From Trypanosoma brucei (lineage: Eukaryota): a stretch of DNA of 64,000 nt. The position numbers were made by a program, and so were the translations under genes. Position 1 is the stretch's first letter; every line of letters starts with the position of its first letter. The notes beneath the pieces are model-generated. The model did not search any database, was not told the DNA's origin, and saw nothing but the letters and a program-made list of their open reading frames with translations. Below are positions 7,578 to 38,344 of the stretch, one piece after another. The stretch is from assembly GCA_000002445.1 (NCBI GenBank), contig CM000208.1, positions 768,001 through 832,000 of the forward strand, read 5' to 3'.

Positions 7578-7628
7578 GAAGGAGCAGGCGTCATTCGCAA
7601 GAGCTCTACCACAATGTTAACAAACATG

Positions 7629-7652
7629 TAAAACCGCCATTATATATATATA
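7629..7652. repeat. (TA)12 microsatellite.
   Basis: Direct reading of the sequence. It lies in the IF1 3' flank, just upstream of repeat copy A. Confidence 0.9.
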
Positions 7653-7719
7653 TATATATATAAGCAACGAGCGTAACGTTTTTTCTTTAGCTAAAATGGT
7701 CTCAATTTCCTATAAAACG

Positions 7720-7740
7720 TTTCTTTTTTTTTTTTCACCT
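7720..7740 (+). promoter_or_regulatory. Polypyrimidine tract, a putative trans-splicing and polyadenylation signal between IF1 and repeat copy A.
   Basis: 'ttcttttttttttttcacctcc' contains a T12 run. Kinetoplastid SL trans-splice acceptor sites lie just downstream of such tracts. This is an inference, and no AG acceptor has been mapped. Confidence 0.3.
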
Positions 7741-7759
7741 CCAAAATATTATCACTACT

Positions 7760-21474: not shown

Positions 21475-23796
21475 ATGTCGGGTCGGCGTGTCACAGTGGA
21501 GAACACGGCATCACCATCGCCTCATTCGAGTGCAAGCCAACAACCACTGCAAGATATCATATCATCACCGGAGCGGCAATGCCACTCATTTCATGGATAT
21601 TATGGTGTGGGAGGTCAGTGTGGTACGCACTATCCATTGGTGGAGGCGACGGCGATGAACTTTAGTGCCGCGTTAGGTGAAGGTACTTCTAGCAGCAATG
21701 CCGTCTCCCCCGAGCAGGACCCACTACTAGAGGGACTGCGTGAGAAGGAAAGGCAGTTCGACGCTCGAGTTGCCGCACTGGACAAAATGTTGATATGCGC
21801 ACAACAGGGCTGCACCCAGCGGGATAGTCTGATTGACAGATTGAACACTGAAGTGGGTCGATTGCGGAAGCAACTTCAGGAATCGAAGGGCACAGGAAGT
21901 AAGCCCAAGGAGATGCGGGGAAGTGCCCTCGAAGGAGACACTACAGCTCTCGAGGAGGCTCGGGCAAAAATTGAGGAGATGAGTAACAGGTTGCGTGAAA
22001 AGAGCCGCCGCTTAATGGCACTGGAAAGGCAATTGGGGTCGCGTGGCGTCGACACCGAAGAGGGTGCAGTGGTTGGAAGAACGGCACCACGAAAGAACCT
22101 AGTCGAAGAGCAAGGACAGCAGAAGCGAGCTCGCTACGCCGCCACTCTACGGTCGTTGCAAAAGGAAGTTGGTCTGTTGGAACAGAAGTATCGTGTGATG
22201 ATGAAGGAGAAAGAGTCTCTCGCGGAGGAGAACCAAAGCCTTCGCCGGAGGGTTGATCGCATTCAGGAGGACGCAGAGGCGGAGCTAGTGGGAGCTGTGA
22301 GAGCGACACACAAGGCGTTGGGTGAAAAAAAAGATCTTGAAACACAGGTCATGGCGACGCGGTTGAGTATGGCGAGACTCCTGCATGTTCTCAGCGAGGT
22401 TCCAGAGATGAGCCGGTATCTGCGCGTTGACGGAGTGACCGGAGACCTCTTGTTCATCGGTTACGCGGCTTTACCGTTGAAAGAGACTGCAGATGGAAGT
22501 GAAGTTGGACGATCTCACCGTGGCGGCTTATCCTTGTCTGCCATGGGCACTGGTGTTGACGACGGAATTTACGGGGGAAGCGCAAAAGCGCAGTCGCACA
22601 ACATTTATCTGAACGGGAAGTGGTGCAACCGTCTACGCGAGATCGTTGACGATGAGAATTGTTTCTTTCGCCGTGCAAAGGTTCATACAGGGGAATTGGA
22701 GGATGTGACGCACTCTCTTGTGGGTGAAAGTGTTCCACGAGTACCGCTCCCAAGCGATGTGCTACAAGGGCGTCAACGCGACAGGGACTTCTGGATTCCG
22801 TATGGTGTTTTCGTGGAAGCGCAGAAGTTCAAAAATCGCTATTTTCCTTCCATGAATGTCGAGTGTTTCTATCCGTTTCTCTTTTCCATCAATGTTCTAT
22901 GGAACAAGCGTATGATGCAGCGGGTGACAACCGCAACAAAGCGCGTTAGTGAGCAACAGGAGAGGCGGCGGAAGCAAATGCTGAGATGTATGAAAAGGGG
23001 AGGGGAACACTATCTTGGATCTCTCTCTCCCTCTACTGGCAGTTTCTCCCCATCCCCGTCAGTAGTGGCACTGCGACGCCAGTTGCAACTTCTGCGTCGT
23101 GAGGTACAGCGGCGCGTTATAGGGCGAAGCAGTTTAGACTTGTTTCACCGTTACGACCTGCTGGTAAGACGCACTCTGCAATGCTTGGAGAAAACGCACA
23201 GGGGTTATATTACACCCTTGAACCAAGCACAACAGAGTGGCACAGCTGGGTCCGTGTCCTCAGACACTGACTTTACTGGTGAACATGTCAATGTGTCGCC
23301 GCTGTGGCGTGACGAATCACCCGAAGAAATGAAGATGAATAACGGCAGCGATGTCAGTGGAAGTAAAGAAAGTCATTACCGCTGTTCCCCATCGATACCA
23401 TTGGCGGGGTTGCTGAACATCAGCCAGCGTGCGTCAACCCATGTCCTTGCATCTTGCAGGCACTTGCGAGAACTCCTCGAGGCCCTGCGCAAGAAACACC
23501 GGTGGTTCTCCCTCAGTGACCATCACTATGAAGGAGATGAGGGTGTGCGGTTAGCCTGTGGGGCAGAACGCACATGCGTGCCCGTATCTACCCTTCACCA
23601 CCTTATTGAAGGTGTGGTAGACTTTGTGGGGGAGGTACAGCAAGAGGTACTGAAAGCGCACAATGCTGTGGAAAAATACTGCACCCACCAGAGGGATGGA
23701 AATGACGTGGTGCTTTCTGCACTCAACAACCAAAGAGCTTCCCGTATTATCGAAGGAGTTTGGAACGACATTCCGTGTGAGGGGGTCAGTGAGTAG
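21475..23796 (+). CDS. Hypothetical coiled-coil protein (773 aa).
   Basis: ATG start. Residues of roughly 80-290 form an E/K/R/L-rich coiled coil (LREKERQFDARVAALDKML...). The rest is protein-like without a recognisable domain. Confidence 0.6.
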   Translation: MSGRRVTVENTASPSPHSSASQQPLQDIISSPERQCHSFHGYYGVGGQCGTHYPLVEATAMNFSAALGEGTSSSNAVSPEQDPLLEGLREKERQFDARVAALDKMLICAQQGCTQRDSLIDRLNTEVGRLRKQLQESKGTGSKPKEMRGSALEGDTTALEEARAKIEEMSNRLREKSRRLMALERQLGSRGVDTEEGAVVGRTAPRKNLVEEQGQQKRARYAATLRSLQKEVGLLEQKYRVMMKEKESLAEENQSLRRRVDRIQEDAEAELVGAVRATHKALGEKKDLETQVMATRLSMARLLHVLSEVPEMSRYLRVDGVTGDLLFIGYAALPLKETADGSEVGRSHRGGLSLSAMGTGVDDGIYGGSAKAQSHNIYLNGKWCNRLREIVDDENCFFRRAKVHTGELEDVTHSLVGESVPRVPLPSDVLQGRQRDRDFWIPYGVFVEAQKFKNRYFPSMNVECFYPFLFSINVLWNKRMMQRVTTATKRVSEQQERRRKQMLRCMKRGGEHYLGSLSPSTGSFSPSPSVVALRRQLQLLRREVQRRVIGRSSLDLFHRYDLLVRRTLQCLEKTHRGYITPLNQAQQSGTAGSVSSDTDFTGEHVNVSPLWRDESPEEMKMNNGSDVSGSKESHYRCSPSIPLAGLLNISQRASTHVLASCRHLRELLEALRKKHRWFSLSDHHYEGDEGVRLACGAERTCVPVSTLHHLIEGVVDFVGEVQQEVLKAHNAVEKYCTHQRDGNDVVLSALNNQRASRIIEGVWNDIPCEGVSE

Positions 23797-24080: not shown

Positions 24081-25136
24081 GTGTCATTTTCCATCAGTTG
24101 CAACCCTTCCTCACCATGTCACACCAAAACGGCCACCACTCCAACAAGGTTTTCTATTCGGGTCACTGTGGAACTACGAATCCGACACAACTGGGGCAGC
24201 ACGTGGCAGGACCAAGTGAAAGGCAACGCGTGCATTGAAACAGTGCTTGATGTGGGCCTCTTGATATTTGTCTGCAGAGTTTTGTCTTTGTTCACACTTC
24301 GGTGGTGTTGCCTTCATGTGCATGTTCCCCGCATTTGTTACTTACTCTCGTCTATTGCCTCTCTTTGGTTTTTAACAATAAGGCAATATCATCAAATACT
24401 GTGCAGGGATGGACATAAAAAGGAAACTGAATTTGACCTCGTTGGGGTGTGGGTTTCATTTGAGAGGGACTGTAGAAGTCTCTCGGTAAGTCAAGGTTGG
24501 ATCGCACTGCTACGGTACTACCTGCAAGTAACGGAACTCATCCTGTGCAACCTGCAGAAGGATAAAGAAATTTGGGATAATGCCCACACGTTGTTAAATA
24601 CTGCATTTACTTTTGTGCAGCTGCGGGAGTACTATGAGTCGAGACATAGAAGTGACGAAGGTGCACTCGCTGCTGATATACGAAAGTTCTGCCGGAACAA
24701 CCTAAACAATTTGGTTCCTAATATACGACGGCTCTCACAGTCCTTTCCATCCGCACAGGATAGCACGGAGGTTAGGAAGCTGTCCCAACGAGTTGAGTGG
24801 AGAGACCTTCTACACAAACTCCCAGAGTCAATTAATTCTGTGTATTTTGAAGCAGAAGTGAGGGAAACCAAGGAGTTTGCCAAAAGGGGCGTCGAGGGCA
24901 GTGAAAAGGCTCGGGCAGAGTCATTGAAGAAGCATCTCGAACAAATTGACAATATGTCGACCGAGGACACTTTGAGGAATATCAATAAAACCATCAACTT
25001 CTCTGGTGGGTGCTGGTATAAATGCCCTAAAAGACACTTTTATGTTGTCGGAGAGTGTGGCAGCCCTGCAGGGGAAGGAATAGGTGGGGTGGGCCACATC
25101 TCATTCCCTGGCAATACATCTGTTGGGAGGTTTTAG
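24081..25136 (+). CDS. Hypothetical protein with a C-terminal RZ-finger-like motif (copy B of 7760..8893); start unresolved.
   Basis: Near-identical to copy A over the shared region, with 3 nucleotide differences that are all nonsynonymous (A to T, L to F, L to F). The ORF again opens on a GTG that lies outside the repeat, so the N-terminus differs from copy A. This supports the view that the 5' portion is not translated as drawn. Confidence 0.4.
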   Translation: MSFSISCNPSSPCHTKTATTPTRFSIRVTVELRIRHNWGSTWQDQVKGNACIETVLDVGLLIFVCRVLSLFTLRWCCLHVHVPRICYLLSSIASLWFLTIRQYHQILCRDGHKKETEFDLVGVWVSFERDCRSLSVSQGWIALLRYYLQVTELILCNLQKDKEIWDNAHTLLNTAFTFVQLREYYESRHRSDEGALAADIRKFCRNNLNNLVPNIRRLSQSFPSAQDSTEVRKLSQRVEWRDLLHKLPESINSVYFEAEVRETKEFAKRGVEGSEKARAESLKKHLEQIDNMSTEDTLRNINKTINFSGGCWYKCPKRHFYVVGECGSPAGEGIGGVGHISFPGNTSVGRF

Positions 25137-26817
25137 GAACCGGGAGGGTGTCATAGTGGACGAACTATTTCCTGTTGTAATGATAAGTGGAATGGAATAT
25201 AATGTAATATGTGATGATGTGAAGTATGGAGCATAATTTGAATGGAACTAATGATGGAATGGGGTTTTTGTGGATAGGAGTGCATCTCCTGTTGATCATG
25301 CAATCCATATCCCTTAATGAGGGCACAGCACTCCTTATTAGTACTTTTACTTTTACTTTGCTTTTGCTTTTTCTTTTTTTGCTTTTGCTTTTGCTTGTTC
25401 TGTGAATGCTATCATTGGGTGTCTTATGCCCTTGCTTCTGTCGTTTGGCTGCTTTTGTTACTTTGTCAGCCACTTACTATATTACCATCCTTTACCTTAA
25501 TTCTACCTCTCTTGCACACATACCACAACTGGGATACTAAAAGGGGGGTTATTGAACGGTAACAAACAAAATAACTCGTGCTCTGATTAATTGCATCGCA
25601 ACGTGGTGGTTTCGAGATGTTCCATCCCCAATTGGTGGCGGGTGGTGCCAATCGCGCTGCACCGGCAGAGGAGCTACGCGACACAGCCGAGACGGTGCAG
25701 ATATCGTCTTTGGCATTGCTCAAAATGCTGATGCACGGGCGCGCTGGGGTGCCGCTCGAGGTAATGGGTTTGATGATTGGTGAGTTGATTGACGACTATA
25801 CGGTCCGTGTATCTGATGTCTTCTCCATGCCTCAAACGGCCACGGGTCAATCCGTTGAAGCTGTGGACCCAGAGTATCAAGTTCATATGTTAGACAAACT
25901 CTCCGTGGTGGGTCGACCGGAAAAAGTTGTTGGGTGGTACCACAGTCACCCTGGTTTCGGCTGCTGGCTTTCTGGTGAGGATGTAATGACGGCGAGCAGC
26001 TATGAGCAACTGACGCCGCGCAGCGTGTCGGTAGTGATCGACCCTATCCAATCGGTCCGCGGCAAAGTAGTAATTGACGCCTTCCGCACCACGAAGGACC
26101 CGCATACGGGGCCGCGAATCATGTTCCAAGAGCCACGACAGACAACAAGCAACATCGGGTGGCTGACGCGACCTTCTCCTATTGCTCTCACCCGTGGGTT
26201 GGATCGTGACTATTACAGTCTTCCCATTACCTTCCGCAAGAAAAACCACGAACTTGCGCTACTCCTCAACGTCTACAAGAAGGGTTGGCAGGAGGGTTTC
26301 CGATTAGAAAACATGACACGTTTTGACCGCAATACGGTGCGAGAGAAGATGCGTGCGCTGGCGTCGCTTGCCGTCCAGTCGGAGCGATTCATTGTTCAGG
26401 GTCTCGATGAAGATGATGTAGGCAATGTCGGTCGAGCAAATCCCATTGCGCATCTCCAATCCGAATCGGAGGGCCTAATCAACGCGAGTCTTAACCAATC
26501 CATAGGAGCGATGATTAATGGGGTTGTCTTCTGAGGAAACAGGGTACATTGCGTGTGCTCCAGCTATTACTGACCATACTTTTTATATGCGCTACCGTGT
26601 TGATTTTTTATCACCCTCTCTATAACGTTTACGGGGTGTTATGCTCCTTTTCTGCACTCCCGTTTCTGTGACAATGTGGCGTGATTACAATCAGCGCAGG
26701 ATGGCATTTGCTAGTGATGTGGTGTCATCTTCGTGAATGGCATGTCATTTGTTTGTGGTGGGGTAATTACTCGTCCTGAATTTCCTAGTGATTCTACAAA
26801 CATATCTCTGCAATACC
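24088..26817 (+). repeat. Segmental direct repeat, copy B.
   Basis: See copy A. The flanks are unique on both sides (the 3' UTR of the 21475..23796 gene on the left, an AT-rich spacer on the right). Confidence 0.9.
25617..26534 (+). CDS. RPN11: 26S proteasome regulatory subunit RPN11 (copy B).
   Basis: Protein identical to copy A (305 aa). I saw one synonymous nucleotide difference (gatcgc versus gaccgc), and the JAMM motif is intact. Confidence 0.9.
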   Translation: MFHPQLVAGGANRAAPAEELRDTAETVQISSLALLKMLMHGRAGVPLEVMGLMIGELIDDYTVRVSDVFSMPQTATGQSVEAVDPEYQVHMLDKLSVVGRPEKVVGWYHSHPGFGCWLSGEDVMTASSYEQLTPRSVSVVIDPIQSVRGKVVIDAFRTTKDPHTGPRIMFQEPRQTTSNIGWLTRPSPIALTRGLDRDYYSLPITFRKKNHELALLLNVYKKGWQEGFRLENMTRFDRNTVREKMRALASLAVQSERFIVQGLDEDDVGNVGRANPIAHLQSESEGLINASLNQSIGAMINGVVF

Positions 26818-26942
26818 CCTGTGGCTTTGTGGAAGTAGATCGGCTGACTTTGTTTTTTCTTTATTATTGTTTTTTTTAAATATATTTAGCACATCTTTAA
26901 TTTGTTATTAACTCATTTATTGTACTAAGTTCCGCTTTCTTG

Positions 26943-27350
26943 ATGTTTTCACGAAGCTTTGTCGGACGAATGGGTAATGGCACGTATGGAGGCTGGCCGT
27001 GGCCTGTGAAGTTGCCCCTCAAACGTGGCTGGCATCACGAATTGGATCGCCATCAGAGTATCGCTGAGGAATCTCGAAGGTACATTTTATTTGGTGACGC
27101 GCTGTTGGTTTCTATTGTTTTGTACTCCGTGTATCGGCTTTATTATTTAGCCCTTTGTAGTGACGCGTATCGAACTCACCTATCTCACCTCAGTGGAGCT
27201 CCCCCCGCCATCATAGCGAACAGCTTTGACTTCGCAAACCTCGAAAATAACCGTACGGTGCCGCGGGCAGTTCTCGACGAATATCGCGAGGCTGTTGTTG
27301 ATGGAAAAGTTAAGCGCGCTCCTATTGAGAGCATCATCTTCAAGTACTAG
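26943..27350 (+). CDS. Small hypothetical protein (135 aa) with one predicted transmembrane helix.
   Basis: The track start is a TTG, and the ATG is at 26943. It has a hydrophobic segment 'ILFGDALLVSIVLYSVYRLYYLAL' and sits directly downstream of repeat copy B. Coding status is not established. Confidence 0.35.
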   Translation: MFSRSFVGRMGNGTYGGWPWPVKLPLKRGWHHELDRHQSIAEESRRYILFGDALLVSIVLYSVYRLYYLALCSDAYRTHLSHLSGAPPAIIANSFDFANLENNRTVPRAVLDEYREAVVDGKVKRAPIESIIFKY

Positions 27351-30300
27351 GCAAATGAAGGGGGACAGGAACGCATGAGTAAACCTGAGGTGATGTAATG
27401 ACAACTGCAAAGTGTGTCGCACCTCCATCTTTCCACAGCTGTTCCTCGTCTCCCCTTTCCCATGGTCTGTAGAGCACCTGATAAGTGGGAGTCATCATGA
27501 GAGTTGTCTTTCCACAGATTCCTTTCTCTGATCGGGTTTTCGTAGCGACTCTAGTAATCCACTTACTACCATCACTTCCTTATTATTGTTCTTTTTTTCT
27601 TTTTTCTTATTTAGGTACGTGGGGAAGATGGGGAGAGGGCAAGAAAAAAAGGTGGCTGGGCCAGTGGTAATAGGGATTTGACCAGTTGAACCTTACACTA
27701 ATACGAAAAGACGACCCTTCCATTATAAAGCGCCAAGTTACGGTTGCGAAGAAAACGAAATGTACGTGCACTGACCCTTCTGCGGGCCAGAGAAAGCAAA
27801 TGCATTACACACTGTGGTTTTCCTGGCCGGCCGTTTCGTTTGTTTTTTTGTCCTTGAGTTCTGAGTTCTCGCGCTTGATATGGTGTTTCCTCCCTTTCGT
27901 CTCTTTTTTTTTCTTTTTAACTCTTTCTTTTTTTCCAAAATTTTCCTCGCGGTAACCACTGAAAATTCCACCAACCCAACAGTGTCTAAGAAAAGGGCCA
28001 AAAATGAAAACAAGTAATTGGCAACAAGAGGTACCACGCAAGTAGAGCGAAGCATGCGGATGAACGTTATTTCAATTGCCGTATGTCGTTAAACACCGGA
28101 GTCTCAACCGCGCCCACGGCCCACTGTTCCTTAAGCGAGCAAAACACGTGGGATGCCGCTGCGTATGTGTTTGTCGGGAGGGGTGAAGTTTTGCAGTTTT
28201 TTAACCCTTGGTATCTCTGAGTTAATTCGGGTGTTGTGGGGACTTTCCCACTTTCCTTACAGCATGCTCCGTCGAGGAAGCGATAGTACAAAAGTAAAAA
28301 CACAAGAAAGTATTCAATTCTGAGTGGGAAGGGGGAAAACAACAAAAGAAAGCGACGCTCAACAACAGCAGCACCGATGGGAGCGGCTCTCACGAAATCG
28401 AGAGGAGAATTCAAGAGGTAACATCGCGTATTTAACCACATCGTTTCACGAAGGGTAGACGACTTTCCCCCAAGTGCAACTCTGGAAAGTGAGAAACGAA
28501 TCTGGGGGGTTTGGGCCTGTGAAGCGGTTATTGCTCGTTGTTCCTTTTTCGTGGTTTATTTCCACAAAGTGCCATCGAAGAAACACAATTCACACCGATG
28601 GGAACACGCGTAGGAATAAATGATACTATCGCAGCAGCACTGGGCACACGCACAAACATCGCGGGGTACCATCAAAAAGAAAAAAAACTTTTAATGACTG
28701 GTTTCAAAGCGGCACAACAACATTTGCGTAGTGTAACTTCGATGGTGACGCTTTGGTTATCACCGTCGAGCAGGGTATCACACTAAGGCAACTCATGGCG
28801 TAGTCGAAGGCTCGTCGCGGCCCCTTCTTGTTTTTACTTGATTGCACCGTTTCCCACCTCTAATAATGCGGCGTCAGTCTCCAATAAGTGCGAAACATGC
28901 GGCAGTGGCCGGTTGTGGCGGCTTTCTGATTCACCTTTCCTGCTCACTAGGTGTGGGCGCACAACTTTCTTCATCCCATGTAGGAGTCATTGCGGAAAGG
29001 ATTGTCTTTCTTCCCAGTAGCACGTCGTGTCAACCATCGAATTTCAGAGCGTAGCATTATCTAAGCTATTGTTATACGAAGTTGTGCTTTCGTTTTTTGG
29101 AGGGAGAAGTATTTTCCACTAATAGCGTGCCTGTTTCGTCATTTGCTGAATAGTGCGAGGGGGGAAACCGCGGAAGCTTCACCCCGGTGCTTAGTATTCG
29201 CCCTTTCGGGTCTATCAGTCCACACCCTGCCCTTAATTCCCTCAGAGTACTGCATTCACTTGGGCGGCATGACGATCCTTCACACACTACATTTGGTTGT
29301 CGGTGGTCATGTACTTTTTTCGCGGTTGTGTGCTTTCCCTGGACGCCGTGCCAACCGACATTTATCATACCTTTTTCCATAGACTGTACGGGAGTTACCC
29401 TTTCTCCACGCTTGACCTCATGTTCCTCCTTTGCGCCCGTCCCCTGTACCCAACATTTGCGTCGGTGGAGTGACTTCCGCTTGAACAATCCACCGCAACT
29501 CACCGTGGTACGTAGGAATGCACACACTAATAATAAATCTCCCTTCAACATCCCCAGCTGTGACTGCAGTCGCTCCAATAAGTTCCCTGATGCCCAGGCC
29601 CGGTTATGAGGCGTTTCGCCGACTTAGTCTTTACATTGCCTCCTCCTCCTGCCTTCCTCCACCATCTGGGCAGCAGGTGGGGTAGAATTAAGTGGAGACA
29701 AGTTACATATCGAGCGGGCTGCGGAGCGCTAGGGACTGGCCTTCCTCGGGTCTCGGAAACTGCAACTCTCCCCACTACTTCCCCCATCTTTCTCCGCACA
29801 CATTACACGTTGTCGACGTTGAGCGCCGACTCTCGTTAATGCAACCCAAGGCACTTCAATGTGCCGGTGGGGGAACTGGGCAAGAATAGCGCCTCACGTC
29901 TACGCCATCCTCCTTCTGGCAGATGTGACAAAGCAGATTGCTGTGGTATGCATTTGGGCCTCTTTCCTTAGTCGAACCTCTAAGGTTCCTTTTCTTTCCC
30001 GACAACCCTCTCACTGCATATGCCCCTAGTGGCGGATCTGTGGCGGTTTGCTCCCTCTCTCAGCCGCCTCATTTTCGTCTGTTCCACAGTGGGGGAAACG
30101 CCGCATTAAGACGGAAGCGTTCCGCTCCATACGTCCCAGCATTGACCCCCATATGCGTCGGAAAATGCCCTCCTTCATGTTGGCTCTGTCTTTCGCGAGA
30201 GAATTGGTAATGTTGAACCTCTGAAAACGGCTGCTTCAGTCCTAACACTATCCTCTCGGAGAATTTTTTAAAGGACATCTTCCAATCCCGTTCCCCTTCC

Positions 30301-33300
30301 CTCAAAATAAAAACGCTTTCACAACCACAATAGCGTGATGATCCGCCCACCCGCTTGCGCATCTTGGTTGCCACACCCACCCTATTGAATGGAGGAGTCC
30401 CTATTGCGAGCGGTGAGCCTAAACTAACCGCACAGGTGGCCCCAAATGGGCAAAGCACGTTGTCGTATTTCCCCCTTCTTCTTAATATGTGTGTCTTTCC
30501 CTCCTTATACATGGCATTTGCTTTTGCTCACCCTGAAGGAGGGGCCCTTTTTCTTGGTCTCGCTTCTTATTGTTGTGTTTTGGTCAAATAGTGTTTTCCC
30601 GTGAGCGTACCACGTTGTAACACCATCCCTTCAAATCATTTAATCACTCATGCGTGCGATGTCCCGAAGGGCTCGATTTCTCTTCCATCACGCGGGATGA
30701 CCCTCCCCTGACCACAAGCTGAACAAAACATCCTATTGCTTATTGCACCTCAAGAGTTGATGGATCGGCCGCGCCTTCTTCAGGGTGTCGCTACCGGTCC
30801 TGCTGGACAGCCCTCCGTCTACAATGCTCCCCGTCGGACCATGTAACATTTCCATCGTGCTTTTATCATTTATGAATGTTGAGAATAACCACGGTCCGGC
30901 CTCGTAGCGCACACGCACACACACAGCTGCACCAACCCCTGATGGAATCCCCAGAATACTCATGTGACCCAGTCCGGTGAGGAAACCGCTCCTAACTTTA
31001 CCAGCATGAGCCTGGTTATTATGGACACTTCTTGCGCACATAACTCCACGACTCATACAGGCTTCGTTGTGTGGCCCGGTTACTTTGGCGCCTTCCTCGA
31101 CGCATACATCTACGGGTCACCATAAGATTTAGTGATGGACGCGTTATCCCCCGAAACAGTATGCGCCCGCTTTGGTAGTTTAAACTTCAATGAAGTCATC
31201 TTTTGATCACTAGGTATCGTGGACAGGTCCAGCCCGTGGGGTTACATTTCAGCTTCCGTCAACCCGCCTCCGTTTGCGTTAGCGTAAGGTTGCCGGCGGG
31301 GAAAAGGTTTCATATATTCTGTTTACATTGGTTAGTGACTCAGTGGATCTATCGTTCACGGCCATGAACAAAACAAAGTCGGACACCGTTTTTTTTTTGC
31401 CACACGGTACGGCTATATGGGGCCTTCCCAAAGTACTGTCGGTTTATAATGACTCTTGCTACCTTGTTGGGTGAAAGTTTCTTACCCACCACATAATTTG
31501 TAGATTAGAAAAAAACTTTCTCGGCTGCCCCGAAAATGACAACATTTCCCATGGGTTCAAACTCACGAGTGTAGAGTACGAATTTCACCGTGACGAGCAC
31601 CGTCGATTCGTACCAAGTTGCGTCTCCAATCAACTGAGTTATGGATTCTACTGACAAGGTGGGCGCAGAAACCTTTTCCTTTTGTATACGCAACCAACGG
31701 TCAACAGAATCCACAAAACTCCTTTGAAGCAACCGCTGCATTGCTTTGTAATTGGCGCAGGTGGGCGCTGTTAGTTTTTGGCGATGCCATGACAGAAGTC
31801 CCCTTGCTTTCCCATAACGCCAGTTCAATAGCTTCACACTTCCACTTTCCCAACGCTCCCCGGTATTTTCGATTCCCGTTGAGTAGTTTTTACATGTAGT
31901 TTAGCCCGTTTACCTCCATGTGCTTTAGTTGGTCTACCATACACGCCATTTTCTCCAGAAGAGGGGATTGGCGATCTTCCCGTGGCAACAATCGGCTCAA
32001 CCATGCGAAACAGTTTGTGTTTCGCGTCTTTCCCACCTCCGACACGTTCGTTACCGGGGCATCTGAGAGTTTTGTCTGTCGTTGGTGGCACATATTTGCC
32101 GTTGGTCGCTACCCCTGCTCCTTCTATCAGCATCTTGCCGTTTATCACTGGTGGAAGGGTTGGTCCCCATTCTGGGGCGTGCACCGCGTTCGAAAACTTT
32201 TGATCCTTTCCCCCCTTGACAACAGTCTGGCTCCGTTATTTTTCTGGTTGTTGGAAACTTTTTTTGTAGATTGCTTTTGCCCTTGTTCTGATGTTTCTAT
32301 TATTACTTGTTCCGTCATGGAAGCTTTCACACATCCTCCTCTGGCTCTGAAATCTCTTTGGCCCCTATCTGACAACCACTGCTCCGTGCTTCGCGTTGGC
32401 CCTTGCCGCCGACTGGCGTGGAGTTCCGCACACCGCGTCGTTAGGACTGTTCCCACACTTTTTAGACTTGTAAAATCATTTTCACCATTCCCACCACGCT
32501 TTTTTTTTTCCAGTGGTGACCAACCTGCCTTCCTCCGCCGGGAGGGATAACTTCGGCATGCACCTGGCATCATCTTTCCAACACCCGACCAAACAGTAAT
32601 GCCAACAGTCGTCCATTGCTGCCGACAGGCCTGCGTACGGCGCTCCGCTGTGACACTTCAAGAAACCCCCCTGGAAATCGGCGCGGTCCGTGCCTCGTTT
32701 TGCGGTTCGTCCTCCTTCGCCTGATCGCCCATGCGCTGGAGATTCCCATTCCTTCATTTACGTACCAGTCAGCAGGCGGCTCTCGCCCGCCACGTTCTTG
32801 GGTATGCGTTCTCCCGGGCGAGGTGGCGAAAGCTAGCTCCCACTCCTGGGAATGGTGGCTCCTCCGGCACGTTTAGTTTTTCTGAGGTCTCCGCGTTCGC
32901 GTTGAAGCCCGTCGGGAAGCGGACTGCCGTCGCACCAGTTTTTGCATTACGGTTGGGCGCTCCTACTGCGATTGGTTTTTCCGACTCTCCCGCACTTGTC
33001 GTCAATTTGGAGCCCCGCGCCGTTGCAAGCGGCGATGGGCGAACCACGCTGTTCCGTCGTGCCGAGGTCCCATGTTCTTGGAAGGACTCCTTTTTCGACG
33101 AGAAACGTCTCTTAGCAGGGAGCGTCGCATCACCTCAGAACGTCGGCACGGGGACGTGACGGAGGCTGATGGATCTTCCGTCGCAGTGTTACAACTAAAG
33201 GCGTATGTCCACTGGGGGCACGTTGCTTGACGGGTGCGGTGACACGTCGGTCGTTGGGTCTGATCGTTGTGAGACTGTTGCGGGCAGCGCACCGGTTCCC

Positions 33301-36300
33301 TGTGGAGGAGGGTAGAACGTGTCTTTGGCCTTCGTACAGGCGGCGCTTGACACCGACGCTACGAGGGAGTGGCCCATTTTTTAGTGATGCGTATCCTTGT
33401 CTGTTGGGCAGTTGGGGTGAAGAAGGGTCGAATGATGGCGCCTCCGTTGATTTTCTGCCTATACGTTCTTTCTGAAATTATTGACCGTTTCCTTTTCTTT
33501 ATACCTGATTGCTCATCCTTCGTGTGGCATATTTTTTTTCGCTTTAAATATTTTGGTAGGACATTAATAGACGGTACTATCTGCTATTGGTGGAGTTCTA
33601 AGGTAGCTGTAGTTATGGACGCCGCAGATGCCACCGGAGGGGGCAGCGTAAAGCCATTGGCTGAATTAATTCAGCTAATCCGTGTCCGCGGTGGCGTTAC
33701 AAAGGAGTGTGCACGCCCTAGGCGTACTAACGATCATTCGAATGACCTTTGCGCTGTACCCTTTTCGTTACCTGTGTGGAAAAGGGCGCGAGGTCACAGT
33801 CCCCCAAGGGCCGCTTTACCAGTGAAGGAGTCGGTGTCAAGGCGACCTGAACTGTCAACAACAGTGAGAAGACGACGACGACGAATGGAAGGTTGCCATG
33901 CGGTGACTACGAGAAATGTTTCTACCTGTTCGGCTGACTTTCAGATTATGGAAAAATTATCAGTTGGGGCGTATCACTTGACGTACGTGCACGTCGATCT
34001 TTATCATCACGGGTTGAAACGTCTGATGGACGATGCGGTGCTTAGGACAAACCCGAAGAAAATCGTTGGACGCAAGTGCTGCTATTTAAAACCCGGCACA
34101 GATCTTGTGGTGACTGGTTGCGTAATTGAATTCACTAAGAATGATCTATCTGTGCAAGTGGCCCCGGATAAGGGCATTGACGTGGACGTGGAGTGGGTGA
34201 AGTTGGAGGATGTTTACGTCCCGGAAAACATTGATAAAGTGAGAGTACGTGTTTCCGATGAAGTGCGCTCGGGATTACAGAAAGTAAAAGAGGCTCCAAA
34301 AGAGATGAGGAGAAGGTTTGCTTCACAGTAATATTCTAATGGGCTGTACATCAAGTTCTATTGAAACGTGTGCAAGGAAGTGTTCACAAACGCACTAGTA
34401 GTCGAAAGTAATCCCTTTTAAATTAGATAAAACGTACCATACCTGTATGCCATTTACCCCTAATATGGAGCACCAACCCCCGTTGTGTGCATGGAAATGG
34501 CCCTTTGGTTACCCACTTGTATCCTTCCCTTGGGGAGGCATTCGATTGCAATATCGAAATATTTCCCTTATAAGTTTTTGCACCTTTCCGTGCAACGTTA
34601 TGTGTATGTATGGGGAAATTGGAAGCGTTGCAGCTGTTTTTGCGACGACGGTATTTCCACTAGTGTGATTCTGTAGTTAGTGGAATATTCACAGATGCTG
34701 TTTTTCAACTTTTTCTCTCTCATATATATATGTATGAGGGGGATCGGTTACTTTTCTATGAGTTTCTCCCCTCTACTAATCTGTTCACTCCACATCGGCT
34801 GTGCTGCTGCAAGTGTAAGTGATGGGGGTGGTGAGATGAAGTACCGCCTCTTGAGCTTCCAATGTGGATGACAATCACTGCCTGTGTAGCGAATTGCTGT
34901 ACATATGTATATGCGTGTGCATGTGTGTCTTGACCACCATAAGAAGTTTTCCCACTCCTTCGCATATTCTCATTCAGTTTTTCCTTACACCTACATCTCT
35001 GTTTTCGTTCACATTACGTTGTAAGGCTACTTGCTCCGGCGCTCGTCCTTTGTTGATTTGTACGGGACTATCACAAACATTTATTACATATAAGTATATA
35101 TATTTGTAAGAACCAGTCACAGTTTGCTATACGGGGCCGTACTACAGTGTCTATGCACTGTGGGCGCATTCGTCGTTGGATGGTGGTTACATGAGCGGAG
35201 CACATTAGTTTGGACTGTAGATATTGAAAGTTGTAAGAACCGTGGTATTTCAAGGAAAAGTTCGGGTTTAGTAAGCTGCATTCGGATTGTACTCCGCCTC
35301 ATTACGGGAGAGCTTCATTCGGCGGTTAATTGACTTCCGCGTTTTGACCCTCTTTTGTTATTTTACTGATGCTTTGTTTTAGCGGCGAGTGGTTGGCTGT
35401 GAAGCGCATAGCCATAAGAGTCTCATATAACTTAGACCCTCGCAACCTACTTTTCAAGTAGACCGTTTGAGCATTTTGTTTGGTGATGGAAGACATTAGC
35501 TTGCGCGGAAAGTGAGGAGATTAAGTCATAACCAGTGCTGGATGGTTTGTTGCGAAGCAACGGATCAGACTCCTGTATACGGCACCGATTTATTAGTTTT
35601 CAGGATATCGTAAATTGCTCCTCTTCAGTTGGGTGGTGCTTAATTTTCTTCAGGAGTCGCGAGCTTAATTTTGCACCATTCGTATGTTGTTTGCTCTTGT
35701 ATACGTTGTTCGTTTTTTTTTTTCGTGGGGATTCGGCGTAGAGATATCTGAGGAATGACAACAGCATGAATGAGTATGATGGATTTATGGCACTGTAAGT
35801 GTTACAAAATTATGGTGCACGTACGGTCAACCGCTGTCAGTCGACTAAAATGCCAGCACATGTTGTATAATCAGCACTTTCCTTTCCCCAATGGGATTTA
35901 TGTGAGTCCTGTGTCTCATCAGGAGGACTTTGCTGAGCCAACGGTAGACTCATTCGACACTTTATTTTTCTTTTTTTCCTGGGTGTCAAGATGGTAGGTG
36001 AAGGTGTGGAGAAAAGTGTACTCTCGGCGTGGGCACCCAAACTGCTGAAAGTATTTGCGTGACGACCCCTCCTCGTCGTAGCTATCACGGTTCCACAATC
36101 GTGATATTGCCAAAATACTGATTTTACGTAACAGCGATAGTGTGTTAACTATCTTAACTAAAGTTTTAATAAACCTAACTTCATTATTGCCACACTGCCT
36201 ACTTTATGTTCACCACTTTCGTTTTAACATTTTGATGTTGCACACGTTTTTGACGATGCGTACGAGGCAACTGGTTTAACTCACGGTGGGAAGGTGCTTA

Positions 36301-37159
36301 CACTGTGTGTGGTTTACGTTAGCGGAGTGCATCCATTTGTTCACCTGCTTTTGTCGTGGGGGTTCAGACTGCTTTCACTCAATGAGGGAGGGGGAAGGGG
36401 AATGTTGCCGTCTTAATTACTGGTTTCCCCTGCGTGGTTAACCTTACACTTCACGGAAAGGAAAATGTCTCCGACCACTCGTTTACACGGTAGCTGCCCC
36501 GTGATTTGCAACTTCAGAATTATGTCTGTTGTACACCTACGTTTTTTTCCTTGCATAGTTTGCTATGTGCACTTCATCGCCGGTTGGTACGTGTTGATAA
36601 GTTCATGGTTCGTTTATTGGCGAGGCATAGTTTGTGTGTTGGTAACTGTTGACATATTTTGTAGCTGTATAAGATGAAAGCTGTGTGATCGAAAGTTTTT
36701 CTGCCTCATTGATACTAGATTTTTTTGTGCCACATATATACAGGTTTTCTTGAAGATCTATTTTTTTTTTTTTTTGCGTTCTACTAATATCGTTTTTACT
36801 GCACATGAGCACTATTTTAGGTGTGAAGCACCAGCCGTTATGCACGGCTCGTATATACGAAGAGGGTGGGGACTTTATTCGCTTAAAGATGTTCTGGAGG
36901 ATATATCTGATTCACTCGTGCAAGCCTCTTACTGTCGACAAAACGTCGTACTGGGCGCTTGAGTCTAGGGTTTATTTTTTGCTTTTTCTTCGCCGATAAT
37001 GATAATAATAACACTTCTGCAGAGTTCCACCGAAGTTGTTCGTATACCTCCATAAGTGTTGCCACCGATACATTTGCAGTGTACCTCCGACGCATGCAAC
37101 GTCTCCTTCGCTCTTAGTAAAACATTTACCGAATCTTCTTTCGTTTTCACTACGAATAG
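27351..37159. other. Roughly 9.8-kb gene-poor interval inside the polycistron. No ORF is long enough to trust. One sampled sub-block (32.5-33.4 kb) is roughly 60% G+C by eye, and I extend that label to about 28.8-33.4 kb from the same kind of ORF pattern, without sampling it.
   Basis: Only short, mutually overlapping ORFs on both strands. The flanking genes sit at roughly one gene per 1-3 kb. A 33615..34331 ORF is the only plausible gene. Confidence 0.6.
33615..34331 (+). CDS. Candidate hypothetical protein (238 aa) inside the gene-poor region.
   Basis: The track ORF (33369, GTG) begins with F/C/W-rich UTR-like text. From the in-frame ATG at 33615 (MDAADATGGGSVKPLAELIQL...) the translation is protein-like. 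It includes an 'RRRRRR' run and an acidic/hydrophobic C-terminal half. Same strand as the polycistron. Confidence 0.3.
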   Translation: MDAADATGGGSVKPLAELIQLIRVRGGVTKECARPRRTNDHSNDLCAVPFSLPVWKRARGHSPPRAALPVKESVSRRPELSTTVRRRRRRMEGCHAVTTRNVSTCSADFQIMEKLSVGAYHLTYVHVDLYHHGLKRLMDDAVLRTNPKKIVGRKCCYLKPGTDLVVTGCVIEFTKNDLSVQVAPDKGIDVDVEWVKLEDVYVPENIDKVRVRVSDEVRSGLQKVKEAPKEMRRRFASQ

Positions 37160-38344
37160 ATGGGGATAGTCCGAGTACAGAGGCCGTTGTTGTGGCTGTT
37201 GGGTGCCGTGTTTTTGCTATGGGTTTTACGAAGACAGCGCCGATGCAGCCGATTTTTTGCTTCTTTAAAAACAAGTATTCTAAAGAAACTTACGTGCAAA
37301 CGTTTGGGGAGAAAACAACCCCGCGTGGCTGTCAGAAAAGTTGATCTATTTGTAGAGAAGGTGCTCGCCCAGGGAGGCTTACAAGACGTGGATAAGATAG
37401 TGGGTATTTTCCCGCGACACTTCGAGCTTGTAGGCCATGTGGTCGTGGTAAAACTCAACCGCGGAATAGCACGGGATGTCTTTGCACCGTATGCAAGGGC
37501 GCTGGCAGAATCCTTTTTTCCACGAGTTATTGACGTTGTGTTGTTGGATACCATGGGAATTGTCGGGGAGCTTCGGGAGCCCCACCTAGAAGTACTGTGG
37601 TCGAGTGCCACTTCCCACTTTAGTGTGAACGATAGTTTACTGAAAGTCACCAAGGAGCGAGTGCGCAAGGCATCGACCTTTACCTCAGAGGACGCGGAGT
37701 TGCTCGGCTCATGCGCAGAAGCGGTAACATTTACAACTCATGTCGAAAATGGGGTCCGGTATAGCTTTGATGCATGTAAGGTAATGTTCTGTAGTGGGAA
37801 TGTGACCGAGCGTATGCATTTTGCTTCCATCATAGCCAAGGATGAGGTGGTGGTTGATATGTTTGCTGGTATCGGTTATTTTACACTACCACTGGCCATC
37901 AATGGCGGTGTGAAAATTGTACATGCACTAGAAAAGAACAAATACAGTGCGTTGTATTTGGCATTTAACGCAGTTCAAAATAAAGTCAGTGATTTAATAG
38001 TAATTCATTGCGGCGACAATAGGGACGTGGGATCGGAGTTGTGTGGTCGGTGCGATCGAGTAATAATGGGTTATATACCATCGTGCGAGTCTTTTTTGCC
38101 CCGTGCTATTTCGTTTCTGAGGCGTTCGACGCGTGGGGAACCAATGGGGGTGGTTCATTATCATCTCCTTTCAGAGAAAGATCAGGTCATAAACACTGTA
38201 ACACATCACGTGCGGTCTACCTTGGATGAAGCAACTACATCGCTTATGCGTATCGTGAACTTTCGCATGGTGAAATCATATGCGCCGAAGCGTTTTCATT
38301 TTGTGGTTGACATGCATTTTAGCAGTTTACAGGAGCCGGAATAA
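37160..38344 (+). CDS. TYW2: tRNA wybutosine-synthesizing protein 2 (TYW2/Trm12, Trm5-family SAM-dependent transferase).
   Basis: ATG start. 'VVDMFAGIGYFTLPLAINGG' matches the 'LYAGIGYFTLPFLV' SAM-binding block of human TRMT12/TYW2. 'MGYIPSCESFLPRA' matches its 'NLGLIPSSE'. An upstream 'FPRHFELVGHVVVVKL' block is typical of the Trm5/TYW2 N-terminus. Confidence 0.75.
   Translation: MGIVRVQRPLLWLLGAVFLLWVLRRQRRCSRFFASLKTSILKKLTCKRLGRKQPRVAVRKVDLFVEKVLAQGGLQDVDKIVGIFPRHFELVGHVVVVKLNRGIARDVFAPYARALAESFFPRVIDVVLLDTMGIVGELREPHLEVLWSSATSHFSVNDSLLKVTKERVRKASTFTSEDAELLGSCAEAVTFTTHVENGVRYSFDACKVMFCSGNVTERMHFASIIAKDEVVVDMFAGIGYFTLPLAINGGVKIVHALEKNKYSALYLAFNAVQNKVSDLIVIHCGDNRDVGSELCGRCDRVIMGYIPSCESFLPRAISFLRRSTRGEPMGVVHYHLLSEKDQVINTVTHHVRSTLDEATTSLMRIVNFRMVKSYAPKRFHFVVDMHFSSLQEPE

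What the first reader, a model, noticed from the sequence alone, without database searches (positions are those of the whole stretch)
27351..37159. A 9.8-kb gene desert, partly GC-rich, embedded in an otherwise dense co-directional polycistron
Kinetoplastid polycistrons are normally gene-dense, and here nearly 10 kb lacks any long ORF. By my reading, at least 32.5-33.4 kb is G+C-rich, which is atypical for trypanosome intergenic DNA (usually AT or Y-rich), and the same ORF pattern may extend across roughly 28.8-33.4 kb. That sub-block is tiled by short ORFs in shifting frames on both strands, as expected for a decayed gene or retroelement (ingi/L1Tc/DIRE/VIPER-type) or a lineage-specific pseudogene. 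Alternatively it could host Pol III or snoRNA genes, or an internal transcription start or stop region. I could not recognise any element signature by eye.
Basis: seen in the sequence. Interest (0 to 1): 0.6.

Follow-up and report, generated by a model that had tools for sequence, protein, structure and literature searches.

The report
Known trypanosome transcription-unit boundary
The supposed 9.8-kb gene desert is an already mapped boundary between two transcription units on Trypanosoma brucei chromosome 10, holding a silent stop/start zone, one real conserved small gene and two catalogued low-abundance transcripts, so it is ordinary for this organism.

Summary
The window is T. brucei chromosome 10; window position + 768,000 gives the Tb927_10_v4 coordinate. 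The interval is not one desert. It holds a real gene, Tb927.10.3070 (CDS 33615-34331, 238 aa). That gene has orthologues in T. theileri, T. cruzi and Leishmania, and its protein has been found by mass spectrometry.

Published RNA-seq (Kolev 2010) accounts for the rest:
- The 3' UTR of Tb927.10.3040 ends at about 27856.
- No transcript is listed for 27857-32423. That study ends one + strand transcription unit there and starts the next, typed 'Internal'.
- Transcript Tb10.NT.37 (32424-33449) covers the GC-rich block.
- The Tb927.10.3070 mRNA runs 33560-34894.
- Transcript Tb10.NT.38 (35026-37032) fills most of the right part.

The only TREU927-annotated ORF in the gap (29072-29551, minus strand) gives no detectable transcript in wild type. 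Its Lister 427 orthologue rises about 35-fold when the promoter complex SPARC is lost.

Synteny shows the Tb927.10.3070 family gene is the first gene after a divergent strand switch in Leishmania. Up to four genes present in other species between it and TYW2 are absent from this interval in T. brucei.

No retroelement, pseudogene, tRNA or Rfam signal was found. The finding is already known.

The parts
26940..27350 (+). CDS of Tb927.10.3040 (old name Tb10.70.4500; 135/136 aa). It is listed as a succinate dehydrogenase complex II component and is the last gene of the upstream transcription unit. It lies just outside the finding's left edge.
   Evidence: The ORF is. The exact protein is EAN77729. 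The published 3' UTR lengths of 475-506 nt put the stop at window 27350. Kolev Table S14 names it as the last ORF of the unit. It appears as an SDH complex II entry in PMC6299225. The new-style ID is assigned from the order of accessions.
27351..27856 (+). 3' UTR of Tb927.10.3040, with poly(A) sites at 27825 and 27856.
   Evidence: Kolev 2010 Table S13 gives poly(A) sites at 795825 and 795856 on Tb927_10_v4. The offset of +768,000 was fixed and checked.
27857..32423 (.). A 4.6-kb zone for which the retrieved tables list no transcript. The upstream unit ends here and the downstream unit begins here (an 'Internal', non-divergent Pol II start region). The + strand is very pyrimidine-rich from about 29.0 kb onward.
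   Evidence: Kolev Table S14 lists the unit Tb10.70.5230..4500 (+), then the unit Tb10.70.4430..3780 (+), typed 'Internal'. Novel transcripts NT.36 and NT.37 are consecutive in the chr10 list, with none between window 25404 and 32424. There is no coding signal.
29072..29551 (-). Tb10.70.4480, most likely Tb927.10.3050: a 159-aa ORF found only in T. brucei-group annotations. It is the only TREU927-annotated protein in the gap, is probably not a gene, and serves as a reporter of promoter-proximal derepression.
   Evidence: The exact protein is EAN77730, named 'Tb10.70.4480'. It gives no detectable transcript in Kolev Table S2. The Lister 427 orthologue of Tb927.10.3050 has log2FC 5.13 in set27 knockout. 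Upregulated core genes typically lie within 2.5 kb of a SPARC peak.
31400..32200 (.). Hypervariable island just upstream of the first spliced 5' end of the downstream unit.
   Evidence: There are 68 differences in 800 nt against T. b. gambiense where 5.3 are expected (Poisson P 5e-50). Against the two assemblies compared (DAL972 and long-read T. b. equiperdum), 86 columns vary in a mosaic pattern.
32424..33449 (+). Tb10.NT.37, a low-abundance spliced and polyadenylated transcript (0.59 RNA per cell) with no convincing ORF. It covers the GC-rich block at about 32550-33400.
   Evidence: Kolev Table S7 places it at 800424-801449 (+). An AG directly precedes 32424. GC is 0.59-0.61. The codon-usage score is non-coding. 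The 142-aa ORF 32731-33159 is annotated only in DAL972 and OVI.
33560..34894 (+). mRNA of Tb927.10.3070 (Tb10.70.4430, UniProt Q38BT9). The CDS is 33615-34331 (238 aa). It is the first protein-coding gene of the downstream unit.
   Evidence: Kolev Table S1 gives the annotated ORF as 801387-802331 and the transcript as 801560-802894, so the splice site lies inside the annotated ORF. An AG precedes 33560. The protein is 100% identical to EAN77731. tblastn gives E 2e-29 for T. theileri, 6e-24 for T. cruzi and 1e-14 for L. infantum. The protein was found in SET27, CSD1 and JBP2 purifications.
35026..37032 (+). Tb10.NT.38, a 2-kb transcript (1.13 RNA per cell) without a long ORF. It fills the interval from which up to four ancestral genes are absent.
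   Evidence: Kolev Table S7 places it at 803026-805032 (+). An AG precedes 35026. No relics were found. The codon score is non-coding.
37160..38344 (+). TYW2/TRM5-type methyltransferase (most likely Tb927.10.3080), the right-hand anchor of the synteny comparison.
   Evidence: Pfam PF02475 scores E 2e-38. The protein is identical to EAN77732. Orthologues are listed.

Best explanation
The interval is a head-to-tail boundary between two RNA polymerase II polycistronic transcription units on T. brucei chromosome 10. In the literature this kind of site is called a non-divergent, 'internal' or single transcription start region (sTSR).

Proposed sequence of events:
1. The upstream unit ends with Tb927.10.3040, whose mRNA is polyadenylated at about 27.83-27.86 kb.
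2. Polymerase terminates somewhere in the next few kb.
3. A new round of dispersed initiation starts in the pyrimidine-rich, then GC/GT-rich, 29-33.5 kb zone.
4. The first processed products of the new unit are the low-abundance transcript Tb10.NT.37 (32424-33449), the mRNA of the conserved gene Tb927.10.3070 (33560-34894) and Tb10.NT.38 (35026-37032). TYW2 follows.

The short ORFs in the gap are chance ORFs.

In evolutionary terms, the boundary sits at the left edge of a conserved synteny block. In Leishmania that block begins at a divergent strand-switch region near the left end of the chromosome 3 record. The 2.8 kb to the right of Tb927.10.3070 is what remains where up to four genes stood (2-hydroxyacid dehydrogenase, class-V aminotransferase, a myosin and a dual-specificity phosphatase).

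Shown: the gene, the transcript ends, the published unit boundary, the synteny, and the absence of element signatures. Inferred: the exact position of termination and initiation, the chromatin marks at this locus, and that the GC-rich or GT-rich block is promoter sequence.
For: Identity of the locus:
- The region is collinear with T. b. gambiense chr10 at 99.0%.
- The proteins are identical to TREU927 EAN77729-77732.
- The +768,000 offset comes from Tb10.70.4480. It was checked by the annotated ORF 801387-802331, which equals 33387-34331, and by an AG preceding all three published 5' ends.

Published mapping (Kolev 2010, PMC2936537):
- Table S14 ends one + unit at Tb10.70.4500 and starts the next at Tb10.70.4430, typed 'Internal'.
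- The poly(A) sites, splice site and novel transcripts are.
- Tb10.70.4480 gives no detectable transcript.
- The main text says these start sites are enriched in 5'-triphosphate reads and coincide with histone-variant marked sites.

SPARC study (PMC9566855):
- The Tb927.10.3050 orthologue is up 2^5.1 in set27 knockout.
- Such genes typically lie within 2.5 kb of a SPARC/promoter peak. At unidirectional promoters, initiation shifts 1-5 kb upstream or becomes bidirectional.

The gene:
- It has orthologues by tblastn, a family alignment with 51 invariant columns and a coding-like codon score.

Synteny:
- L. infantum: [- strand gene], strand switch, 268-aa gene, 2-Hacid_dh, Aminotran_5, an uncalled DSPc-like match, TYW2.
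- T. theileri: 264-aa gene, 2-Hacid_dh, Aminotran_5, myosin, DSPc, TYW2.
- T. cruzi: a trans-sialidase gene lies upstream of the 264-aa gene, then myosin, DSPc and TYW2 follow.
- Decay of these genes is in progress in T. grayi and T. conorhini.

Composition: a GT-rich sense-strand window at 33.2 kb matches the GT-rich promoter concept (PMC5579346).
Against: - No chromatin or nascent-RNA data for this locus could be read here. The H2A.Z, H4K10ac, SPARC, H3.V and base J status is inferred, not seen.
- Table S14 gives flanking genes, not the coordinate of the start site.
- Equating Tb927.10.3050 with Tb10.70.4480 rests on the order of accession numbers. It could be Tb927.10.3060, though either lies inside the gap.
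- The RNA-seq comes from procyclic T. b. rhodesiense, so other stages could differ.
- The left-hand side of the synteny break was not examined in other species.
Confidence: 0.85

Rival explanations
1. The 28.8-33.4 kb block is a decayed retroelement (ingi/RIME, DIRE, SLACS or VIPER type) or another lineage-specific pseudogene. The transcription boundary would be secondary to it.
For: - Synteny breaks in trypanosomatids often hold retroelements (established knowledge).
- In T. theileri, a VIPER/DIRS-like element sits directly upstream of the orthologous gene on the minus strand. It has a GAG-like ORF with a CCHC knuckle, an ORF that by eye resembles a tyrosine recombinase, and an ORF with a weak RVT_1 hit.
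- GC skew is negative over 29.1-32.9 kb.
- Minus-strand codon scores in the gap are slightly higher than in ordinary intergenic DNA, but far below coding level.
Against: - Pfam gives no relevant hit at E <= 1 in any of six frames of 27351-34400; the sole hit is a chance-level phage-tube match.
- tblastx shows no similarity between the T. theileri element and the interval.
- There are no terminal, inverted or tandem repeats and no poly(A) tail.
- ORF lengths are within chance.
- The sequence is pyrimidine-rich on the + strand in both C and T, which fits sense-strand intergenic composition rather than an inverted coding sequence.
Confidence: 0.07
2. Region A keeps the skeleton of an ancestral divergent strand-switch region. 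On this view 29-33 kb is the remnant of a short minus-strand unit, like the single minus-strand gene left of the 268-aa gene in Leishmania. The site would be a cryptic bidirectional promoter, normally held unidirectional by SPARC.
For: - In Leishmania a strand switch lies directly upstream of the orthologue.
- GC skew changes sign at about 33.0 kb.
- The only annotated ORF in the gap is on the minus strand and is derepressed about 35-fold in set27 knockout.
- In that mutant, 14 of 54 unidirectional promoters become bidirectional.
- Kolev 2010 reports antisense 5'-triphosphate reads at all putative start sites.
- In the T. equiperdum OVI contig, the sequence right of 30349 is joined to a minus-strand unit.
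Against: - tblastx finds no similarity to the 358 codons of the Leishmania minus-strand gene available here.
- There is no minus-strand coding signal.
- The AT skew is also negative, so the strand is pyrimidine-rich rather than simply inverted.
- The OVI junction is contradicted by three other assemblies.
- This reading refines the best explanation rather than replacing it.
Confidence: 0.15
3. The ORF-free stretch is an artefact: sequencing or assembly errors have broken one or more intact genes.
For: - The T. equiperdum OVI contig has N-gaps at the positions matching 30.8 kb and 32.0-32.2 kb, a further N-run at about 32.5 kb, and a different left flank.
- T. grayi and T. conorhini contigs end just upstream of the orthologue.
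Against: - Three independent assemblies share the same structure at 99% identity or about that: the TREU927-like window, DAL972, and long-read T. b. equiperdum.
- There is no coding-like codon usage anywhere in the gaps.
- No homology was found in any frame.
Confidence: 0.02
4. The interval hosts Pol III-transcribed genes or a snoRNA cluster.
For: Some internal start sites in T. brucei lie next to tRNA, snRNA or rRNA genes, according to the type column of Kolev Table S14.
Against: - ARAGORN finds no tRNA in the whole window.
- Rfam gives no hit at gathering thresholds in 64 kb and none at E <= 1 in 26500-37400.
- Table S14 types this start as 'Internal', not 'next to tRNA/snRNA'.
- Caveat: Rfam covers trypanosome snoRNAs only in part.
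Confidence: 0.03

Closest known systems
Non-divergent ('internal', sTSR/ndTSR) RNA polymerase II transcription start regions of Trypanosoma brucei (Siegel 2009; Kolev 2010; Wedel 2017; Staneva 2022)
   Same: - The units on both sides are on the same strand.
- The tables retrieved list no transcript for several kb between the last poly(A) site and the first splice site.
- The start is typed 'Internal' in the published unit table.
- The hypothetical ORF inside the region gives no detectable transcript and is derepressed when SPARC is lost.
- A GT-rich sense-strand segment lies upstream of the first coding gene.
   Different: Nothing found here sets it apart. This locus is one of the roughly 54-57 such sites already catalogued. 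The exact initiation coordinates and the chromatin marks at this locus were not seen here.
Divergent strand-switch region near the left end of the Leishmania chromosome 3 record
   Same: It lies directly upstream of the orthologue of Tb927.10.3070. The same downstream genes follow: 2-Hacid_dh, Aminotran_5, a DSPc-like match and TYW2.
   Different: In Leishmania the left neighbour is a minus-strand gene and the non-coding interval is 1.1 kb. In T. brucei the left neighbour is a + strand unit and the interval is 6.3 kb between coding sequences.
Synteny-break regions of trypanosomatid genomes that carry retroelements or surface-gene families (El-Sayed 2005, recalled from memory)
   Same: The left neighbour of the 264-aa gene differs in every lineage examined:
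- a VIPER-like element in T. theileri;
- a trans-sialidase gene in T. cruzi;
- contig ends in T. grayi and T. conorhini.
   Different: In T. brucei no retroelement or gene-family remnant is detectable.
Dispersed CpG-island-type promoters of mammals (a comparison made by Kolev 2010)
   Same: Initiation is broad and intrinsically bidirectional according to the paper. Locally, GC is high and CpG observed/expected is 1.14 in the 32.55-33.4 kb block, against 0.92 for the window.
   Different: This is a functional analogy only. There is no shared machinery or sequence family, and trypanosome transcription units are polycistronic.

Membership tests
T. brucei non-divergent Pol II start region / head-to-tail unit boundary | Protein-coding genes on the same strand on both sides | tested here: met
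   All ORFs of 228 aa or more in the window are on the + strand. The flanking genes are confirmed by Pfam and homology.
T. brucei non-divergent Pol II start region / head-to-tail unit boundary | A gap in mature transcripts between the poly(A) site of the last gene and the splice-acceptor site of the first transcript | tested here: met
   From published tables mapped onto the window: poly(A) site at 27825/27856, and next 5' end at 32424. The mapping was checked by the AG dinucleotides.
T. brucei non-divergent Pol II start region / head-to-tail unit boundary | Primary (5'-triphosphate) transcript starts, listed as the start of a unit | tested here: met
   Kolev 2010 Table S14 lists Tb10.70.4430..Tb10.70.3780, +, 'Internal'. 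The method is described. This is a literature result, not recomputed here.
T. brucei non-divergent Pol II start region / head-to-tail unit boundary | Enrichment of H2A.Z/H2B.V, H4K10ac, RNA pol II and SPARC (CRD1/SET27) | not testable with these tools
   Indirect evidence only. The Tb927.10.3050 orthologue is up 2^5.1 in set27 knockout, and such genes typically lie within 2.5 kb of a SPARC peak.
T. brucei non-divergent Pol II start region / head-to-tail unit boundary | Termination marks (H3.V, H4.V, base J) just upstream of the start region | not testable with these tools
   No locus-level data could be read.
Kinetoplastid retroelements (ingi/RIME, DIRE, SLACS, VIPER/SIRE) | Remnants of reverse transcriptase, endonuclease, RNase H, tyrosine recombinase or GAG | tested here: not met
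   Six-frame Pfam at E <= 1 gave nothing relevant. tblastx with the T. theileri VIPER-like element gave nothing in the interval.
Kinetoplastid retroelements (ingi/RIME, DIRE, SLACS, VIPER/SIRE) | Terminal repeats, target-site duplication or an A-rich tail | tested here: not met
   Only a 23-nt T-rich family and one 71% complementary 28-nt pair were found.
Kinetoplastid retroelements (ingi/RIME, DIRE, SLACS, VIPER/SIRE) | Multiple copies in the genome, or nucleotide similarity to reference elements | not testable with these tools
   No T. brucei genome or repeat library is available. There is no second copy within the 64-kb window.
Pseudogenes of the syntenic genes (2-Hacid_dh, Aminotran_5, myosin, DSPc) | Detectable protein-level similarity in any frame | tested here: not met
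   tblastn gave no hit below E 0.1 anywhere in the window. The same queries detect frameshifted relics in T. grayi and T. conorhini.
tRNA, snRNA or snoRNA genes | A match to a covariance model or tRNA detector | tested here: not met
Conserved kinetoplastid 264-aa protein family (Tb927.10.3070) | Sequence homology over the conserved C-terminal half, and the same genomic neighbourhood | tested here: met
   tblastn gives E 2e-29, 6e-24 and 1e-14. The alignment has 51 invariant columns. The gene lies upstream of TYW2 in every species examined.

The most novel reading that the evidence does not exclude
The 800-nt island at 31.4-32.2 kb lies immediately upstream of the first spliced 5' end of the new transcription unit. 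It differs from T. b. gambiense at 8.5% of positions against about 0.7% for the flanks, and the haplotypes are mosaic.

The most novel reading is that Pol II initiation zones in T. brucei are local hot spots of mutation or recombination. That could follow from initiation-linked R-loops and DNA damage. It would also fit the T. equiperdum OVI contig changing partner inside the same gap, at 30349.
Probability: 0.15. Interest if true: 0.5.

Novelty: already known. Interest (0 to 1): 0.12.

Why it matters
It matters little for discovery. The boundary, the transcripts and the gene are already in the literature and in the genome annotation.

The useful outcome is corrective:
- In kinetoplastid scans, a multi-kb ORF-free, compositionally odd stretch inside a run of same-strand genes should first be read as a unit boundary (termination plus initiation), not as a dead element.
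- The annotated 314-aa start of Tb927.10.3070 is too long.

The synteny result adds a small piece of evolutionary context. It places this internal start region at the left edge of a synteny block that starts at a strand switch in Leishmania, and it shows stepwise loss of up to four neighbouring genes across trypanosomes.

Tried and rejected
- Six-frame Pfam scans of 27351-34400 with stops masked gave only a chance phage-tube hit at E 0.19. The first attempts with DNA references failed because of stop codons.
- Rfam found nothing at gathering thresholds or at E <= 1, and ARAGORN found nothing.
- Tandem and dispersed repeat searches found nothing relevant inside the interval.
- tblastn and tblastx with syntenic genes and loci of T. 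cruzi, T. theileri, T. vivax and L. infantum hit only the 238-aa gene. tblastx with the T. theileri VIPER-like element hit nothing in the interval.
- A homologue search with the 238-aa protein alone found only T. brucei-group proteins.
- A chimeric query (T. theileri 264-aa protein plus the 136-aa ORF) returned the 264 family. It returned nothing for the 136-aa part, not even the T. brucei protein itself, so the left-hand synteny anchor was never obtained.
- A look-up of the 314-aa product in the gene-position index failed.
- AlphaFold2 on the 7-sequence family alignment gave an unusable model (mean pLDDT 37, pTM 0.19). No fold search was run, and the weak Tudor-domain hint from the literature stays untested.
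- The apparent 1521-aa ORF upstream of the T. theileri element is a run of N.
- The two 773-aa ORFs in the window are unrelated.
- Siegel 2009 is not held in the library.
- Several paper look-ups made to find gene IDs were uninformative.

Full report
**Where the window comes from.** All ORFs of 228 aa or more lie on the + strand. The TYW2-type methyltransferase gene at 37160-38344 is found with an identical product on a T. equiperdum contig. The stretch 23400-44332 is collinear at 99.0% identity with T. b. gambiense DAL972 chromosome 10 (FN554973.1). The products of four consecutive genes are identical to T. b. brucei TREU927 proteins EAN77729-EAN77732. Kolev et al. 2010 list Tb10.70.4480, a minus-strand ORF, at 797072-797551 on Tb927_10_v4, and that ORF is window 29072-29551. 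So window position + 768,000 gives the v4 coordinate. Two checks support the offset. The annotated ORF of Tb10.70.4430 (801387-802331) equals window 33387-34331. All three published 5' ends that fall in the interval sit directly after an AG.

**The observation.** The gaps 27351-33614 (6.3 kb) and 34332-37159 (2.8 kb) are the two largest between + strand ORFs in the window. The GC-rich claim holds: 32.3-33.45 kb is the most GC-rich 850-nt stretch of the 64 kb, at 0.596 against 0.490 +/- 0.040. The claim that nearly 10 kb lacks any long ORF does not hold, because ORF 33369-34331 has 320 codons. The short ORFs on both strands are no longer than chance allows: the longest is 216 codons, against 146 +/- 27 (maximum 268) in shuffles. 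A codon-usage scan trained on the window's own genes finds no coding-like 300-nt window on either strand of the gaps. It does score the 238-aa gene and the 136-aa gene as coding. From 29.1 to 32.9 kb the + strand has negative GC skew, and it holds 11 of the 12 most pyrimidine-rich 400-nt windows of the 64 kb.

**A real gene inside the 'desert'.**
- tblastn with the 264-aa protein of T. theileri hits 33942-34319 at E 2e-29. The T. cruzi protein hits at 6e-24 and the L. infantum protein at 1e-14.
- A seven-species alignment has 51 invariant columns.
- Kolev 2010 Table S1 lists this gene among ORFs with a misannotated start. The splice-acceptor site is at window 33560, inside the annotated 314-aa ORF, and the transcript ends at 34894. 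The first ATG after the splice site is 33615, which gives 238 aa. This matches the T. equiperdum annotations and the point where the orthologues begin to align.
- The protein (Q38BT9, Tb927.10.3070) was detected by mass spectrometry in purifications of SET27, CSD1 and JBP2. It is listed as nuclear-enriched with a weak Tudor-like HHpred hint.
- My AlphaFold2 attempt was too poor to test that hint.

**What published transcript maps say about the rest.**
- The last gene of the upstream unit, Tb10.70.4500 (window 26940-27350, most likely Tb927.10.3040), is polyadenylated at window 27825/27856.
- Kolev Table S14 ends a + strand unit at Tb10.70.4500 and starts the next + strand unit at Tb10.70.4430, typed 'Internal'. 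The paper states that these sites are enriched in 5'-triphosphate reads and coincide with histone-variant marked sites.
- Novel transcripts NT.36 (ending at window 25404) and NT.37 (starting at 32424) are consecutive in the chr10 list, so none is listed in between. The minus-strand ORF there (Tb10.70.4480, EAN77730) is in the table of annotated ORFs without a detectable transcript.
- Tb10.NT.37 (window 32424-33449, 0.59 RNA per cell) covers the GC-rich block. Tb10.NT.38 (window 35026-37032, 1.13 RNA per cell) fills most of the right-hand gap.
- Independently, in the SPARC study the Lister 427 orthologue of Tb927.10.3050 rises 2^5.1-fold when SET27 is deleted. Tb927.10.3050 is the ID that by order falls on the minus-strand ORF. 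The authors report that upregulated core-chromosome genes typically lie within 2.5 kb of a SPARC/promoter peak. They also report that at unidirectional promoters initiation shifts 1-5 kb upstream or becomes bidirectional.
- Together these results place a unidirectional Pol II start region in the gap.

**Evolutionary context from synteny.** The gene order upstream of TYW2 is as follows.
- T. theileri: 264-aa gene, 2-Hacid_dh, Aminotran_5, myosin, DSPc.
- T. grayi: the same genes, but 2-Hacid_dh is diverged and Aminotran_5 is split over several pieces.
- T. cruzi: 264-aa gene, myosin, DSPc.
- T. conorhini: only frameshifted myosin pieces and small relics of 2-Hacid_dh and DSPc between the 264-aa gene and TYW2.
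- L. infantum: 268-aa gene, 2-Hacid_dh, Aminotran_5 and an uncalled DSPc-like match.
- T. vivax: at least 3.15 kb of ORF-free, 37% GC sequence.
- T. brucei: 2.8 kb with no relic at all.

The right-hand part is therefore the end state of a gene loss that can be seen in progress elsewhere.

To the left of the 264-aa gene every lineage differs:
- Leishmania has a divergent strand switch and one minus-strand gene close to the start of the chromosome record.
- T. cruzi has a trans-sialidase gene.
- T. theileri has a VIPER/DIRS-like retroelement followed by an assembly gap.
- T. grayi and T. conorhini contigs end there.
- T. brucei has the 6.3-kb interval, preceded by a + strand unit.

The internal start region of T. 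brucei thus sits at the left edge of a conserved synteny block that begins a transcription unit in Leishmania.

**Rivals.**
- The retroelement or pseudogene reading fails every test I could run: six-frame Pfam, tblastx against the T. theileri element, repeats, ORF statistics and codon usage. A nucleotide comparison with a kinetoplastid repeat library could not be done.
- ncRNA genes are not detected.
- An assembly artefact is unlikely, because DAL972 and a long-read T. b. equiperdum assembly share the structure.
- A relic of an ancestral bidirectional region is compatible with the data, but it refines the main explanation rather than competing with it.

**Verdict.** The interval is a catalogued head-to-tail transcription-unit boundary plus one conserved gene and two known low-abundance transcripts. 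It is already known and ordinary for T. brucei.

Two side observations may deserve a look:
- a sharply bounded hypervariable island at 31.4-32.2 kb, just upstream of the first spliced 5' end;
- the T. equiperdum OVI contig, which joins 30349 onward to a different, minus-strand unit.

Noticed in passing
window 31400-32200: Hypervariable island. It has 68 differences in 800 nt against T. b. gambiense, where about 5 are expected (P 5e-50). Against DAL972 and long-read T. b. equiperdum, 86 columns vary in a mosaic pattern: 42 gambiense-only, 17 equiperdum-only, 24 shared, 3 where both differ differently. The flanks, including the GC-rich block, differ by 0.5-1%. The island lies directly upstream of the first spliced 5' end (32424) of the downstream unit.
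   Followed up: partly
window 30349; L001:1-3266 and L010:1-7693: The T. equiperdum OVI contig CZPT02001851.1 matches the window only from 30349 rightwards. To the left it carries unrelated A/C-rich sequence and minus-strand genes (a Peptidase_S9 gene and a 459-aa gene). The OVI copies of Tb927.10.3040 and Tb927.10.3050 carry locus tags and accessions (TEOVI_0005875/76, SCU66650/51) far from those of the right-hand genes (TEOVI_0003954/55, SCU72378-80), which suggests they lie elsewhere in the assembly. This is either a chimeric scaffold or a rearrangement inside the start region. DAL972 and the long-read T. b. equiperdum assembly agree with the window.
   Followed up: partly
window 7842-10574 and 24085-26817: A 2733-bp direct duplication at 99.7% identity, 16.2 kb apart. 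It carries the RPN11 (JAB/MPN) gene and part of an RZ-type zinc-finger ORF. The second copy ends 123 nt before the Tb927.10.3040 ORF. Published transcripts Tb10.NT.35 and Tb10.NT.36 map to the two copies.
   Followed up: partly
L011:5521-9071 (T. theileri): A VIPER/DIRS-like retroelement lies on the minus strand directly upstream of the Tb927.10.3070 orthologue. It has a 421-aa GAG-like ORF with a CCHC knuckle, a 319-aa ORF that by eye resembles a tyrosine recombinase, and a 316-aa ORF with a weak RVT_1 hit. The apparent 1521-aa ORF further upstream is a run of N.
   Followed up: partly
L012:1188-3853 (T. grayi); L013:1673-6643 (T. conorhini): Pseudogenisation is in progress in the orthologous interval. 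In T. grayi, Aminotran_5 is split into four pieces and 2-Hacid_dh is only 38% identical. In T. conorhini, the myosin is in at least five pieces, DSPc is reduced to 46 aa, and 2-Hacid_dh survives only as relics.
   Followed up: partly
window 33615-34331: The first gene of the transcription unit encodes a protein that co-purifies with components of SPARC, the complex that defines Pol II promoters (SET27, CSD1, JBP2). The T. brucei protein is the most divergent member of its family, at 30-36% identity. No Pfam domain was found, and the AlphaFold2 model was unusable.
   Followed up: partly
window ~7260-7760 (+): A coding-like codon-usage signal (0.235 bits per codon) appears upstream of the GTG-started ORF 7760-8893. 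The RZ-finger gene may start further upstream than the mechanical ORF call.
   Followed up: no
window 3950-6271 and 21475-23796: Two ORFs of exactly 773 aa each. They are unrelated (BLASTP E 0.056), so the equal length is a coincidence.
   Followed up: yes
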